DNA of 30,046 nucleotides from Eledone cirrhosa (lineage: Eukaryota). Within the stretch, counting starts at the first letter, position 1. Each line of letters begins with the position of its first letter. Of this stretch, positions 1 to 30,046 are shown in pieces. Both the position numbers and the translations under genes were made by a program. The stretch is taken from contig CAXHJY010000597.1 of the NCBI GenBank assembly GCA_964016885.1, positions 1 through 30,046 of the forward strand, given 5' to 3'. The notes under the pieces were generated by a model that ran no database searches, had not been told where the DNA came from, and saw nothing but the letters and a program-made list of their open reading frames with translations.

Positions 1-1358
1 CATATATATATATACATAGATAATATATATATATATATATATATAGATACATATATATATATATACATATATACATATATATAAATATACTATATATATA
101 TTATATATATACATATATTATATATATATAATACATATATATATACATATATAATACATATATATATACTATATATATATATATATACATATATAATATA
201 TATATACATATATATATATACATATATATATATACATATATATATATACATATATATATACATATATATATATATATATACATATATATATATATATACA
301 TATATATATATACATATATATATATATATATATATATACATATATATACATATATATATACATATATATATACATATATATATACATATATATATACATA
401 TATATATACATATATATATACATATATATATACATATATATACATATATATATACATATATATATACATATATATATATACATATATATATATATATATA
501 ATATATATACATATATATATACATATATATATATACATATATATATACATATATATATACATATATATATACATATATATATATACATATATATATACAT
601 ATATATATATACATATATATATACATATATATATATACATATATATATATATATATATATACATATATATATACATAATATACATATATATACATATATA
701 TATATATACATATATATATAATATATATATACATATATATATACATATATATATATACATATATATATATATATATACATATATATATATATATATATAT
801 ATATATACATATATATATATATATATATATATATATATATATATATATATATACATATATATATATATATATATATATATATACATATATATATATATAT
901 ATACATATATATATATATATAATATATATATATATATATATATATATATACATATATATATATATATATACATATATATATATATATACATATATATATA
1001 TATATATACATATATATATATATATATACATATATATATATATATATACATATATATATATATAATACATATATATATATATATATACATATATATATAT
1101 ATATATACATATATATATATATATACATATATATATATATACATATATATATATATACATATATATATATACATATATATATATATATATATACATATAT
1201 ATATATAATATATATATATATACATATATATATATATATACATATATATATATATATACATATATATATATATATACATATATACATATATATACATATA
1301 CATATATATATATACATATATATATATACATATATATATATATATACATATATATATA
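1..1358. repeat. (TA)n microsatellite with periodic TACA interruptions
   Basis: Direct reading; explains the IY-repeat ORFs 90..1445. Confidence 0.98.
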
Positions 1359-1588
1359 TTTAGAAACACGCAGATACATGCGGACGCACACATATATACA
1401 TGAACGCATCCGCACCCAACTGTGAGTTAAGGGTGCCAACTTCACCGATGTTGCTCAATGAATTGGTCTGTCCCAGTCATTCATTGAGCAACATCGGTGA
1501 AGTTGGCACCCTTAACTCACAGTTGGGTGCGGATGCGTTCATGTATATATGTGTGCGTCCGCATGTATCTGCGTGTTTCTAAATATAT
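1354..1588. repeat. Perfect 110-bp inverted repeat with 15-nt loop
   Basis: atatatttagaaacacgcag...ttgctcaatgaat (1354-1463) vs attcattgagcaa...gcgtgtttctaaatatat (1479-1588). Confidence 0.95.
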
Positions 1589-1851
1589 TAATAACTCCCT
1601 CTGGTCGAGCAATCTTTGAGGTGTGGGGTCAACTGGAAAGCTTCCATTACTCATAGTTCTCGCCTTCATCACTACCTCTTCTACGGCCTCGATATGAATA
1701 CCCCCTCCGCCTCCGTGGTATTTTCTTCGTGGTTATAAGAGGCTTAGCTCTGTTTCTCGACCGTTATATCGCGTGACTATCTCCCCCTCCGCCTTTTGAG
1801 ATTCTTTCTCACGTCGTGTAGACGCGTTCTTGAGACTAATAAAATGAGGTA

Positions 1852-1939
1852 TCCTCTTGATAAGTCGGCAGACCTCGCAAGGACTCTATATCTTTGATAT
1901 ATTGTTTTTGTTTATGCCACGAAACTACGTAGTCGAGGA
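1852..1939 (+). ncRNA. Type I hammerhead ribozyme, U3-A8 core variant (copy 1)
   Basis: Stem I tcctc(1852-56)/gagga(1935-39); core UUGAUAA (1857-63); stem II gt(c)ggca/tgccac with ~44-nt loop; GAAA 1921-24; palindromic stem III ctacgtag; GUC triplet, predicted cleavage after 1934. Confidence 0.75.
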
Positions 1940-2441
1940 ATTTAGGAACAGTTTAGGTATGATACATTTTATTACTAATTATATCTAAATGTTTCTTCTC
2001 TCTTCATAATGTATTTTTTACTCTGATACTGGTTCAGTCTAGTTCAAACTGAATTGGTCTGTCCCAGTCATTCATGAGCAACATCGGTGAAGTTGGCACC
2101 CTTAACTCACAGTTGGGTGCGGATGCGTTCATGTATATATGTGTGCGTCCGCATGTATCTGCGTGTTTCTAAATATATTAATAACTCCCTCTGGTCGAGC
2201 AATCTTTGAGGTGTGGGGTCAACTGGAAAGCTTCCATTACTCATACTTCTCGCCTTCATCACTACCTCTTCTACGGCCTCGATATGAATACCCCCTCCGC
2301 CTCCGTGGTATTTTCTTCGTGGTTATAAGAGGCTTAGCTCTGTTTCTCGACCGTTATATCGCGTGACTATCTCCCCCTCCGCCTTTTGGGATTCTTTCTC
2401 ACGTCGTGTAGACGCGTTCTTGAGACTAGTAAAATGAGGTA

Positions 2442-2529
2442 TCCTCTTGATAAGTCGGCAGACCTCGCAAGGACTCAATATCTTTGATATATTGTTTTTG
2501 TTTATGCCACGAAACTACGTAGTCGAGGA
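2442..2529 (+). ncRNA. Type I hammerhead ribozyme, U3-A8 core variant (copy 2)
   Basis: Same fold as 1852-1939 at +590 offset; the only change lies in loop II; predicted cleavage after 2524. Confidence 0.75.
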
Positions 2530-2604
2530 ATTTAGGAACAGTTTAGGTATGATACATTTTATTACTAATTATATCTAAATGTTTCTTCTCTCTTCATAAT
2601 GTAT

Positions 2605-27410: not shown

Positions 27411-27614
27411 AACGAAGGAAATGTGGTAAGGAACCAGGTGGACCATAACGCACCAAAGTACTCAATACTTGGGGTAGTAGAGTGGGTAATAGGAACCAGT
27501 AAAACCCCGACAGCTGAGCTCAAGCCGTTTGGACGGCTAATTCTGGACTCGATTAATCCAGAATTAGCCGTCGAAACGGCTTGAGCTCAGCTGTCGGGGT
27601 CTTACTGGTTCCTA
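27411..27614 (-). mobile_element. Family E: PLE-like 3' end with fold-back inverted duplication and the 3' half of a hammerhead
   Basis: 58-bp arms 27490-27547 / 27557-27614 with 2 mismatches and a 9-nt loop; the right arm reads gtc GAAA cggc ttgagctca gctg UC ggggt; TA tracts on both sides. Confidence 0.6.
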
Positions 27615-28092
27615 CATATATATATATATATATATATATATATATATATATATATATATATATATATATATATATATATATATATATATATATATATATA
27701 TATATATATATATATATATATATATATATATATACATATATACATATATATATATACATATATACATATATATATATATATATATACATATATACATATA
27801 TATATATATATATATACATATATACATATATATATTTATACATATATATATATACATTTATATATATATACATTTATATATATATACATATATATATATA
27901 CATATATATATATACATATATATATACACATATATATATACATATATATATATACATATATATATATACATATATATATACATATATATATATACATATA
28001 TATATATATATATACATATATATATATATATATATATATATATACATATACATATACATATATATATATATATATATACATATATATATATA
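27615..28092. repeat. (TA)n microsatellite including a >100-bp pure TA run
   Basis: Direct reading. Confidence 0.97.
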
Positions 28093-28765
28093 TAAACAAT
28101 TAAGTTAAAAGTGTACATCCACATATGTATACTGAAATACTAGTATGCATATAAATACACACACGTATACATATGTACATGTACCGAGTTTTTCACCGGA
28201 CACTTTACTGTGAGTGTCCACCTAGTCTGTATGTAACCAAACAGACAAACCGGGTTTTAGAGTCATACGGGTTTTCAAGGAAACACCTTTCCTCTATTCA
28301 CCAGAGAGCCAGACAGGAATATTGGACTAGTTTCGATGTTATTACATCTCATCAGCAATATATACCCATCTTCCGGCTTCTCTAGAGAATCGTAAAAGCA
28401 CATATCATTATATGCTTTTTCTATGAAAATTAGTAGTGGGCAGACTAATTTGCATAGAACGTGAGTTGTACGCACCGGTTCAGCGGAAACGATAAAAACA
28501 AATAACGAAACGAAATCAAATTTCGTTTCGTTTGTAACTCACTTTTGTATGACTGACGCTTAAACAATTAAGTTAAAAGTGTACATCCACATATGTATAC
28601 TGAAATACTAGTATGCATATAAATACACACACGTATACATATGTACATGTACCGAGTTTTTCACTGGACACTTTACTGTGAGTGTCCAGCTAGTCTGTAT
28701 GTAACCAAACAGACAAACCGGGTTTTAGAGTCATACGGGTTTTCAAGGAAACACCTTTCCTCTAT
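28093..28765 (-). mobile_element. Family D: 468-bp unit in partial tandem (205-bp direct repeats 28093-28297 / 28561-28765) carrying a minimal hammerhead
   Basis: The direct repeats differ at 2 positions; hammerhead at 28319-28361; internal hairpins; TA-rich flanks. Confidence 0.8.
28319..28361 (-). ncRNA. Minimal type I hammerhead ribozyme, fully canonical
   Basis: Minus strand: atattg CUGAUGA gatgt aata acatc GAAA ctag UC caatat; 6-bp stem I, 5-bp stem II, palindromic CUAG in place of stem III; predicted cleavage between 28325 and 28324. Confidence 0.92.
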
Positions 28766-29709
28766 ACATACATACATATATATTAATAAAATAATGAATA
28801 AACAAAGAACCAGTTCCTTATATTAAAAAAATTCATCATTTTACGATCGTTTCTAGGATATATATGTGTTAGAGTTGATATGCATATTCTATAGATCTAT
28901 GTACAATATTTATACAAACTATCAGAGGGAATATACAACCTACACATATATATGCTGTCTTCAGAAATAATGATATTTGTTTATTGAAAAAAACCAAAGA
29001 TTCAATACAATAGGTCTGTTTGGGAACAGGTTTTGAATTGACCAATAGTGAGATAGTGAGGGTCAGGATAGTAATATAGTAGTAGAAGAACCTTAAATTA
29101 TAGGTAGAGGAAGGTAGAGTGCAGTTTTGGATGGAAAACAATATTATGAATGAAGGATTATATTAGGGAAGAAATAGGTCTTATGCTGACCTCAGAAATA
29201 ATTTTATTTTTTTCATTGAATAAAACCAACAAAGATCTAATATATTCTGTCTGTTTGGTAAGAGGTTTAGAATTAACCAATAGAAAGTTAATAATTGGCC
29301 AAATGGTAAAATAGGTCAGGTGGTCAGTAAAAGGTATACAAGCAGTTGCTGTTATAAAATAGTAATGCCAATACAAATATCTAAGGTGACTAAAGTTTTA
29401 AGATAAGAATTTTAGTAAAAAAATACATCTATGAAAAGAATATAAATTAATTTAATAGATGGGTATATTTATATTGATAAAATTATACTAATACATATAG
29501 ATATGATAAATAAGAGTTAGATGCAGTTGAAAAGTGGTGTTAAAGATGAGGGGAAATTAAAAGAATATAAAAAAAATATGTATATATATACTTATACATA
29601 TATATACATACATATATGTACACATACACACACACATATATATATATATATATATATATATATATATATATATATATATATATATATATTTATTAAAATA
29701 ACAGATTAA

Positions 29710-29760
29710 AGTTTAAGCAAAGAATCGCTGCTTTCACCCTTAACGGGATCTTCTGAAACT
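29710..29760 (-). ncRNA. Type I hammerhead-like fold with U4A core change (family F, within the TA-flanked island 29690-29940)
   Basis: Minus strand: agttt CAGAAGA t ccc gttaa ggg t GAAA gca gcgattctt tgc UU aaact, then AATAAA and a TA tail. Confidence 0.6.
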
Positions 29761-30046
29761 AACAAAGTCAATCTGTAAACGCAGAACTGGATATTTCAAA
29801 AAACGTTGCAGCCGGAGGAAGACAGGAAGACGATACTTTGGTTCGTGGTAACGTTCGCTGGCAAAGAACGGGAAAAAACGAATAGTACGTCATTAATAGG
29901 AGCGGTGAAAAACAATTACGCGCAAAGACAAAACCACTTATATATATATATATATACATATATATATATATACATACACACACACACACATACACACATA
30001 TATATATATACATATACATATACATACACATATATATATATATACA

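What the first reader, a model, noticed from the sequence alone, without database searches (positions are those of the whole stretch)
1354..29940. At least five unrelated hammerhead-ribozyme element families, all hosted in (TA)n microsatellites: a candidate retrozyme/Penelope-parasite system
Seen: hammerhead folds at 1852 and 2442 (+), 10301, 10605 and 10885 (-), 13084 (+, mirrored on -), 28319 (-) and 29710 (-), plus a half motif near 27570. Outside the catalytic core the families share no obvious sequence. All are non-coding, TA-flanked, and mostly tandem, partially tandem or fold-back duplicated. Established: Penelope-like elements carry minimal type I hammerheads in their pseudo-LTRs, and metazoan non-LTR retrozymes are tandem hammerhead repeats processed to circular RNAs. 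Inference: this genome holds many non-autonomous retrozyme families, mobilised in trans by a PLE RT/GIY-YIG enzyme that favours TA tracts. I cannot tell whether these particular families are already described.
Basis: partly seen in the sequence, partly recalled or inferred. Interest (0 to 1): 0.9.

Follow-up and report, generated by a model that had tools for sequence, protein, structure and literature searches.

The report
Penelope ends and retrozymes in microsatellites
The hammerhead-shaped RNA motifs in this animal DNA are real but mixed: three of the six reported families are broken-off ends of protein-coding Penelope-type jumping genes, and three are short non-coding repeats that land in TA repeats with the same end pattern and are therefore likely copied by those genes' enzymes, both kinds being already known and self-cutting here being only predicted.

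Summary
The motifs are real: 5 perfect-core descriptor hits against 0.03 in shuffles, with compensatory stem changes. The reading "five unrelated non-coding retrozyme families" is half right. The motifs at 13084, 27570 and 29710 are truncated 3' ends of three autonomous Hydra-clade Penelope-like elements (PLEs); longer copies carry RT plus GIY-YIG ORFs. Those at 1852/2442 (591-nt unit), 28319 (468-nt) and 10301-10928 (~440-nt) are non-coding tandem units with no parent found. All insert into (TA)n, often as two outward-pointing arms that end at two different fixed sites 55-165 nt apart (33 of 34 unbiased pairs in one PLE; 17/17 and 14/15 in two non-coding families). This is the published PLE 'tail' footprint and ties the non-coding units to PLE enzymes. 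Both arms share haplotypes. Stubs of two PLEs stop at one initiator-like site; non-coding arms do not, which fits circular or multimeric templates. Sampling suggests about 200,000 hammerheads genome-wide. Cleavage and circles are untested. Hydra PLEs (one octopus family), retrozymes and their link are published, and this scan found the same pattern on other DNA. New members of known kinds.

The parts
1354..2604 (+). Family A insertion, non-coding 591-nt unit: inverted arm 1354-1463 ending at the far site (site 2), direct arm 1459-2604 of about two units ending at the near site (site 1); sites 164 nt apart
   Evidence: 7,444 exact 24-mers in the genome, control 0; longest ATG ORF 43 aa
1852..1939 (+). 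Family A hammerhead 1: U3-A8 core, long bulged stem II, palindromic loopless stem III (dimer type), predicted cut after C1934
2442..2529 (+). Family A hammerhead 2, predicted cut after C2524
2657..2701 (+). Tail-only fragment of another abundant hammerhead family (J); one J copy lies 843 nt downstream of a Hydra-type endonuclease
3516..3827 (+).
   Evidence: 8 of 8 endonuclease loci carry H 320-350 nt downstream
10213..10987 (-). Family B: older non-coding tandem element (about 85% identity between copies; 440-nt unit elsewhere), three decayed units with motifs at 10885-10928, 10605-10652 and 10301-10346
12946..13145 (+). Family C fold-back: 5'-truncated 3' end of a Hydra-clade PLE; inverted arm ends at site 2, direct arm at site 1; hammerhead 13083-13133 (+), mirror 13040-13089 (-) with a weak stem I
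27412..27614 (+). Family F fold-back: end of a very young Hydra-clade PLE (3.53-kb unit, 717-aa ORF); both arms stop inside hammerhead loop II, leaving the half motif 27557-27600
   Evidence: 13,829 exact 29-mers, control 0
28093..28768 (-). Family D insertion, non-coding 468-nt unit, single arm of 1.4 units ending at site 1; sites 74 nt apart
   Evidence: 1,463 exact 31-mers, control 0; longest ATG ORF 70 aa
28319..28361 (-). Family D hammerhead: canonical core, 6-bp stem I, 5-bp stem II, palindromic loopless stem III, predicted cut after C28325
28775..29570 (-).
29690..29938 (-). Family E: single-armed 5'-truncated end of a Hydra-clade PLE, ending at site 1; hammerhead 29710-29760 with U4A core

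Best explanation
The window holds truncated ends of protein-coding Penelope-like retroelements (mostly Hydra clade) and non-coding tandem hammerhead repeats, all lying in TA microsatellites with the same two-site end pattern, and the non-coding repeats are likely copied in trans by a Hydra-type enzyme that would nick both strands of a TA tract and prime reverse transcription at two fixed sites on one RNA. Shown: families C, E and F continue upstream into RT + GIY-YIG ORFs; A, D and B have no coding part; two-armed insertions point outward, have a variable inner junction and end once at site 1 and once at site 2; the two arms share haplotypes. Inferred: each nicked strand primes one cDNA, the second displacing the first (or running on the next unit), and the cDNAs join head to head. 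Inferred: the ~200-bp fold-backs of C and F arise when priming occurs near the start of a linear transcript that begins in the terminal repeat, so the enzyme runs off at the start site. Inferred, weaker: A and D are copied from hammerhead-cut, re-ligated circles or from uncut multimers. Predicted only: self-cleavage, as dimers for A and D.
For: ORF linkage: E, F, C in three independent loci. Hydra motifs RWR, DKT, CxCX5C, YIG, CxxC, CxH against section 11 of PMC8557442. F is very young: 150 of 150 scored endonuclease matches are 100% identical, many in 784-aa open frames, with tandem arrays of 3.53-kb period. End rule: F 33 of 34 divergent pairs in the first 100 rows of a pattern blind to end type (counted by hand; p=2e-9); D 17 of 17 and A 14 of 15 insertions with both ends on a site; E 9 of 11; C 20 of 22 rows. 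Arms concordant at segregating sites: A 45 of 46 (27 expected if independent), D 115 of 120 (75 expected), C 21 of 21 at its one clean site (sites are linked). 5' ends: C 53 of 63 and F 58 of 93 in one 10-nt bin at an initiator-like site; A (41 ends) and D (53 ends) at most 3 and 4 per bin. Selection on the fold in non-coding lineages: core invariant between D and D2 at 60% unit identity; 8 of 14 pairs with changes on both sides, 0 of 500 shuffles. Published frame: tail at one end only, inverted 5' copy and (TA)n bias; two RT start sites bounding the tail, both strands nicked and extended in vitro.
Against: No autonomous element sharing sequence with A, B or D was found among 339 loci (1.7 Mb) that include ends of at least eight PLE families, so the partner is not identified; a non-Hydra PLE (family H) shows the same footprint. 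The site spacing (55-165 nt) is longer than the published 30-40 nt. Arm concordance could also come from gene conversion in palindromes or from subfamilies active at different times. One long D array is a 7-unit higher-order repeat whose units differ by 3-16 changes, so it grew at the DNA level or from a multimer. An extra G (cap mark) at the pile-up site is seen in C (12 of 16) but not confirmed for F (15 of 100, 7 of them templated by the other arm). The C and F loci were top hits of queries that fixed one end. In vitro, PLE hammerheads cleave poorly and cleavage was not needed for insertion; 8 of 9 Xenopus retrozyme dimers did not cleave. Monomer folds of A and D do not put the core in the active form in the minimum-energy structure.
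Confidence: 0.72

Rival explanations
1. One reading: all six families are non-autonomous retrozymes that circulate as RNA circles.
For: All window copies are non-coding and TA-flanked; A, D and B are tandem and non-coding genome-wide.
Against: C, E and F run upstream into RT-endonuclease ORFs; their short fold-backs stop at a fixed 5' site, which a circle lacks; in F that site removes half of the hammerhead.
Confidence: 0.05
2. A, B and D are deletion derivatives of PLE terminal repeats that are copied from ordinary linear read-through transcripts of tandem arrays; the hammerheads are inherited passengers and no circles are made.
For: No 5' ends pile at the predicted cut sites (A q346, D q237); uncut RNA is the main substrate in vitro; a D array shows higher-order DNA-level growth; B, C, D and E share the Hydra-type stem II form.
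Against: Core and stems are kept by compensatory change across non-coding lineages 60-77% identical, which needs selection on the fold; no fixed 5' end as seen for the linear transcripts of C and F; units of one A insertion differ by 0-2 changes across both arms.
Confidence: 0.3
3. The two arms come from self-priming or fold-back of one cDNA or of an antisense template, as proposed for rotifer PLEs (PMC3846280), or from later palindrome formation, rather than from two target-primed events.
For: Head-to-head arms, shared haplotypes and short palindromic junctions in C and F are expected under fold-back too.
Against: The two outer ends lie at different fixed sites and either arm can carry the longer end; in A and D the inner ends of the two arms usually differ by tens to hundreds of nt and either arm can be the longer; both strands are nicked and extended in vitro by a PLE protein.
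Confidence: 0.2
4. The motifs are chance folds in fold-back, AT-rich repeat DNA, and the TA association reflects microsatellites growing from element ends.
For: Rfam gives no hit; the descriptor does yield false hits in a minisatellite (6 of 47 hits); element ends carry 1-6 nt of TA-like sequence.
Against: 47 hits in 600 kb against 0-4 in 8 shuffles; covariation; thousands of exact copies with control 0; TA tracts on both sides of two-armed insertions.
Confidence: 0.02

Closest known systems
Hydra clade of C-terminal-endonuclease Penelope-like elements, including Hydra-1_Obim of Octopus bimaculoides (Craig et al. 2021, PMC8557442; passages, section 11 and supplementary files S1-S2 in part read)
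   Same: Single RT + GIY-YIG ORF with DKT, CxCX5C, CxxC and CxH motifs and no CCHH; (TA)n insertion; 3' hammerhead; partial tandems, inverted 5' copy and a tail at one end; mismatch-opened short stem II in B, C, D2 and E like most listed Hydra hammerheads.
   Different: C, E and F are other families: about 54-57% identical to each other, RWR in place of RWK, hammerheads unlike the one listed for Hydra-1_Obim, six stem strings not found in that supplement (line breaks and table columns weaken this test). Units are longer (3.5 kb; about 6.7 kb for the family related to I), tails 70-165 nt rather than 30-40, and U3-A8 and U4A cores are not among the listed Hydra cores.
Metazoan non-LTR retrozymes (Cervera and de la Pena 2020, PMC7229834, passages read; Li, Clavereau and Pollet 2026, bioRxiv 10.64898/2026.07.22.740005, parts 1-3 of 5 read)
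   Same: Non-coding tandem units with one type I hammerhead each, GC below 45%, dimer-type stem III, co-occurring with PLEs and proposed to be mobilised by them.
   Different: A (591 nt) and D (468 nt) exceed the 170-400 nt RNAs of the 2020 paper but lie within the 51-972 bp of the 2026 survey. In the passages read, neither paper describes two-armed insertions with two fixed ends, TA targeting or a cephalopod. RNA circles and cleavage are shown there and untested here; the 2026 paper links retrozymes to PLEs by sequence similarity, which I could not find for A, B or D.
Minimal PLE hammerheads, including the U3-A8 variant of Schistosoma Cercyon elements (Cervera and de la Pena 2014, PMC4209133, parts 1-2 of 4 read)
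   Same: Loopless palindromic stem III, unpaired base at the start of stem II, U3-A8 covariation, pairs of motifs on opposite strands 100-700 bp apart, many solo motifs from truncated PLEs.
   Different: Thousands per genome there (2,000-9,000; about 120,000 in the axolotl per PMC7229834) against an estimated 200,000 here; stem II of 57-105 nt in A, F and I.
PAc, a Poseidon PLE of Anolis, studied in vitro (Frangieh et al. 2024, PMC11167929, parts 1-2 of 4 read)
   Same: Two internal RT start sites bounding the tail, near the terminal-repeat/ORF junction; both target strands nicked and extended; AT-rich target; hammerhead cleavage not needed for insertion.
   Different: There the start sites are not homologous to the target and lie inside the ORF; here most ends carry 2-6 nt of TA-like overlap (6 of 8 sites at 3 nt or more against 18% of random positions) and in F both sites lie upstream of the ATG. 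The one-site-per-arm rule and non-coding templates were not addressed in the parts read.

Membership tests
Type I hammerhead ribozyme | Core C3/U3-U4-G5-A6-N7-G8/A8-A9, G12-A13-A14-A15.1, U16.1-H17 with three stems | tested here: met
   for A, C, D, I and B (10885); B copies at 10605 and 10301 are decayed; E has U4A in 36 of 36 copies; F and H are half motifs in the window
Type I hammerhead ribozyme | Stems kept by compensatory change while the core is invariant | tested here: met
   (D-type group, 12 sequences; related rows inflate the shuffle test, slid controls are far lower)
Type I hammerhead ribozyme | Match to an Rfam hammerhead model at gathering score | tested here: not met
   0 matches in the window
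Type I hammerhead ribozyme | Site-specific self-cleavage | not testable with these tools
   Needs in vitro transcription or 2',3'-cyclic-phosphate sequencing
Hydra-clade PLE (C, E, F) | Single ORF with RT and C-terminal GIY-YIG endonuclease | tested here: met
   717-aa ORF in F; E and C from frameshifted or truncated copies. Read from motifs; Pfam gives no hit for these proteins
Hydra-clade PLE (C, E, F) | RWK and DKT motifs, CxCX5C linker, CxxC and CxH, no CCHH | tested here: met
   by eye; RWK appears as RWR; N-terminal motifs not seen for C, whose N-terminus was not fetched
Hydra-clade PLE (C, E, F) | Insertion into (TA)n; tandem and inverted structure with one-sided tail | tested here: met
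Hydra-clade PLE (C, E, F) | Generally shorter than 3 kb, canonical hammerhead | tested here: not met
   F unit 3.53 kb with U3-A8 core; E core U4A; a typical rather than strict feature
Hydra-clade PLE (C, E, F) | Placement inside the Hydra clade on an RT tree | not tested
   Reference sequences were seen only as text in the supplement; compared by eye
Non-LTR retrozyme (A, D, B) | Head-to-tail units each with a type I hammerhead | tested here: met
   B has only short decayed tandems
Non-LTR retrozyme (A, D, B) | No protein-coding capacity, GC below 45-50% | tested here: met
   Longest ATG ORFs 43, 70, 39 aa; GC 0.42, 0.37, 0.36; no tblastn match to 6 PLE protein queries
Non-LTR retrozyme (A, D, B) | Dispersed by retrotransposition in trans | tested here: inconclusive
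   Dispersed with the PLE footprint; partner not identified
Non-LTR retrozyme (A, D, B) | Expressed as unit-length linear and circular RNA | not testable with these tools
   No RNA data were examined

The most novel reading that the evidence does not exclude
This genome keeps a readable record of the PLE cycle: a dimeric Hydra enzyme nicks both strands of a TA tract and primes one cDNA at each of two fixed sites on the same RNA; linear transcripts that start inside the terminal repeat give 200-bp fold-back stubs, whereas hammerhead-made circles of the non-coding families give two-armed arrays. With about 200,000 hammerheads, several very young autonomous families and sequence-unrelated passengers, it would supply the enzyme-plus-circle pair needed to show how animal retrozyme circles are written into DNA.
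Probability: 0.35. Interest if true: 0.72.

Novelty: new member of a known kind. Interest (0 to 1): 0.45.

Why it matters
How Penelope-like elements make their tandem and inverted insertions, what their hammerheads do, and which enzyme mobilises animal retrozymes are open questions named in the papers read. Here an intact, very young Hydra ORF, non-coding hammerhead units and mapped priming sites lie in one genome, so trans-mobilisation and the two-site rule can be tested in one tube. It also means that repeat libraries of this lineage may file PLE stubs as SINEs, MITEs or unknown repeats (inference; a 2026 Octopus vulgaris annotation mentions no ribozyme and no Hydra clade in its main text), and Pfam misses the proteins. 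The elements themselves are new families of described kinds.

Tried and rejected
Rfam: no hit at gathering score; the E-value list was filled by microsatellite matches. The repeat finder was swamped by TA. Sequencing runs: no RNA holder listed; no reads were laid, so expression, cut ends and circles stay open. Parent search for A, B, D: BLAST of the units against all loci, downstream scans of endonuclease hits and four further protein searches found other PLE ends but none matching; an apparent D match near a Hydra ORF was low-complexity TG/TA sequence, and B downstream of a Hydra ORF in L174 was a separate insertion. A hammerhead-like tandem family with a stem II like C's (310-nt unit, L186) has no further similarity to C. 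A site in F where the arms disagreed (6 of 6 carriers) first suggested different templates for the arms; the allele is rare (3 of 100) and was carried by my query, so I treat it as selection bias. A cap-templated G at the 5' pile-up: suggestive in C, not confirmed in F. No pile of 5' ends at the predicted cut sites in A or D. The partial tandems at 4987-5871 and 13380-13794 looked ribozyme-like but are L1-Tx1-type LINE 3' ends. Six paper searches listed no paper on cephalopod retrozymes or on two-site priming of non-coding units; Repbase, Dfam and most subscription journals are outside the library, and the supplements of the 2026 bioRxiv preprint (retrozyme family tables) and of the 2026 octopus repeat annotation were not seen and may hold these families.

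
Full report
Setting. The window is a whole 30-kb contig of a 3.0-Gb animal assembly. It is 22% (TA)n against 6% in sampled stretches. It is probably an octopus: that rests on a recalled SINE at 12446-12678 and on the published octopus Hydra family, and was not tested.

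Observation. With no core deviation there are 5 hits against 0.03 in 60 shuffles; two of these are alternative pairings in the 13040-13133 fold-back. A has a U3-A8 core (26 of 26 copies), E has U4A (36 of 36), C is canonical in 41 of 43 and full-length F is U3-A8 in 16 of 17. U3-A8 is a published PLE variant (PMC4209133). Stem III of A and D is a loopless palindrome, the dimer type. Twelve D-type motifs from fetched loci show changes on both sides at 8 of 14 pairs, above all 500 shuffles and all slid controls; D and its relative D2 keep the core at 60% unit identity. Rfam is silent.

Three families are ends of autonomous elements. E copies run upstream into an RT-endonuclease frame. F does too: a 3.53-kb unit with a 717-aa ORF, the complete hammerhead lying about 280 nt before the next ATG; 150 of 150 scored endonuclease matches are identical and many lie in 784-aa open frames. 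C is linked to a third ORF through a TG-rich 3' region in three loci. The proteins are 54-57% identical and carry the motifs given for the Hydra clade in section 11 of PMC8557442, which also gives (TA)n targets and lists Hydra-1_Obim. Family I is about 79% identical to the end of a fourth, 830-aa-frame Hydra-type family. H lies 320-350 nt downstream of a different PLE endonuclease in 8 of 8 loci; I did not assign its clade.

Three families are non-coding. A (591 nt; 7,444 exact 24-mers), D (468 nt; 1,463 exact 31-mers) and B (about 440 nt, 85% identity) form tandems, have no ATG ORF above 70 aa and no match to six PLE protein queries. In the first 100 rows of each pattern list, same-strand neighbours of A and D within a few kb lie at about unit multiples, with no ORF-sized period evident. 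No parent was found (see Tried and rejected). B, C, D and E share a short stem II resembling the form that most Hydra hammerheads have in File S2 of PMC8557442; U3-A8 cores occur in F and in two further Hydra-type families. This is resemblance of form, not shown descent.

One footprint. Insertions often have two arms pointing outward with a variable inner junction. The outer ends fall at two fixed sites downstream of the hammerhead, about 164 (A), 74 (D), 70 (C), 87 (E), 83 (F) and 55 nt (H) apart, and run into TA. One arm ends at each site. For F a pattern blind to end type gave 13,829 matches; among the first 100 rows, 34 divergent pairs, 33 mixed (hand count). For D 17 of 17 and for A 14 of 15 insertions with both ends on a site are mixed; of 20 rows each I dropped 3 for D (two with an off-site end, one compound) and for A two off-site rows and two duplicates, and joined the rows of one long locus cut by the locus edge. 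E gives 9 of 11 distinct loci; C 20 of 22 rows, but the C query fixed one end; B is too decayed to score. [quoted passage not shown] Finding it on non-coding units is the evidence for trans-mobilisation.

Template. Arms of one insertion agree at segregating sites: A 45 of 46, D 115 of 120, against about 27 and 75 for independent draws (linked sites; gene conversion not excluded). Both arms copy the same region, in F up to 3 kb of it, so one RNA is read twice or two sister copies are used. In C and F the inner ends pile at one initiator-like site (53 of 63; 58 of 93). For F the unbiased lists agree: 32 of 34 pairs are 63-107 nt apart and at most 41 of 100 copies keep the reference sequence 4-5 nt upstream. 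The cap-G test was mixed. A and D show no pile-up anywhere, including the cut site (the first arm was selected for length). That fits circles or uncut multimers and cannot separate them. Units of one A insertion differ by 0-2 changes; one long D array is a duplicated 7-unit block.

Abundance. Sixty 10-kb stretches at round coordinates on the large contigs gave 47 descriptor hits against 0-4 in 8 shuffles; I removed 7 by eye (6 in one minisatellite, 1 weak), leaving 40, or about 200,000 per genome (Poisson 143,000-272,000; bootstrap of the unfiltered count 124,000-334,000). The scan misses E, H and I types. 41 of 47 hits lie within 250 nt upstream of a TA tract, against 21% of background points, and counts follow TA content (rho 0.47). 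The window's density is thus about what its TA content predicts. The axolotl has about 120,000 (PMC7229834).

What is known. PLE hammerheads, Hydra elements in octopus, TA targeting, one-sided tails, animal retrozymes and their proposed PLE origin are all in print. The 2026 octopus repeat annotation (PMC13282606; part 1 of 3 and a term search) mentions no ribozyme. My six searches found no paper on two-armed retrozyme insertions or on cephalopod retrozymes; Repbase and Dfam were not available. Earlier notes of this scan report the same pattern on other DNA; I reached the ORF links and the end rule before reading them, and took from them only the lead to Hydra-1_Obim.

Verdict. Observation confirmed, interpretation partly supported. 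New families of two known kinds, with a clear genomic footprint that makes a standing question testable. Interest 0.45.

Noticed in passing
window 23105-25900 (-): 5'-truncated APE-type LINE (Pfam RVT_1 and Exo_endo_phos_2) with one frame break, flanked by long TA tracts on both sides; a second class of element in the same target.
   Followed up: partly
window 4987-5871 and 13380-13794 (+): Partial-tandem 3' ends of L1-Tx1-type LINEs (81% to an ORF end in L178), ending in AATAAA and (TATC)n; present in 10 of 40 sampled stretches. No hammerhead.
   Followed up: yes
window 12446-12678: Very abundant SINE (matches in 117 of 339 loci); resembles the octopus OK SINE (name recalled, not tested).
   Followed up: no
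L199:1754-6480; L322 (G000:C1:183739000-183746500): Young Hydra-type family with 830-aa open frames and a 4-kb 3' region made largely of TG/TA microsatellite-like sequence carried inside the element; family C has a shorter such region. These elements may spread their own target sequence.
   Followed up: partly
L324 (G000:C1:95620500-95630400): Family D array of more than 20 units organised as a 7-unit higher-order repeat: a retrozyme-like unit turning into a satellite.
   Followed up: partly
L186:2207-3457: Two-armed array of a 310-nt hammerhead unit whose stem II nearly equals that of family C, without other similarity.
   Followed up: partly
fetched loci, catalogue: At least a dozen further hammerhead families not in the window; the commonest in random stretches (family J) leaves only a tail fragment here at 2657-2701.
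   Followed up: partly
L196 and L332-L339: Young non-Hydra PLE (parent of family H) with open frames above 1,000 aa and a hammerhead-like motif with only a 2-bp stem I; clade not assigned.
   Followed up: partly
window 11034-11078: Short fragment of the family H tail between TA tracts.
   Followed up: no
window 13800-14040: Unidentified repeat fragment, about 70% identical to copies in 4 loci.
   Followed up: no
L323:1988-4138: An intact 717-aa Hydra RT-endonuclease has no Pfam match even at E<=5, so these elements escape domain-based annotation.
   Followed up: yes
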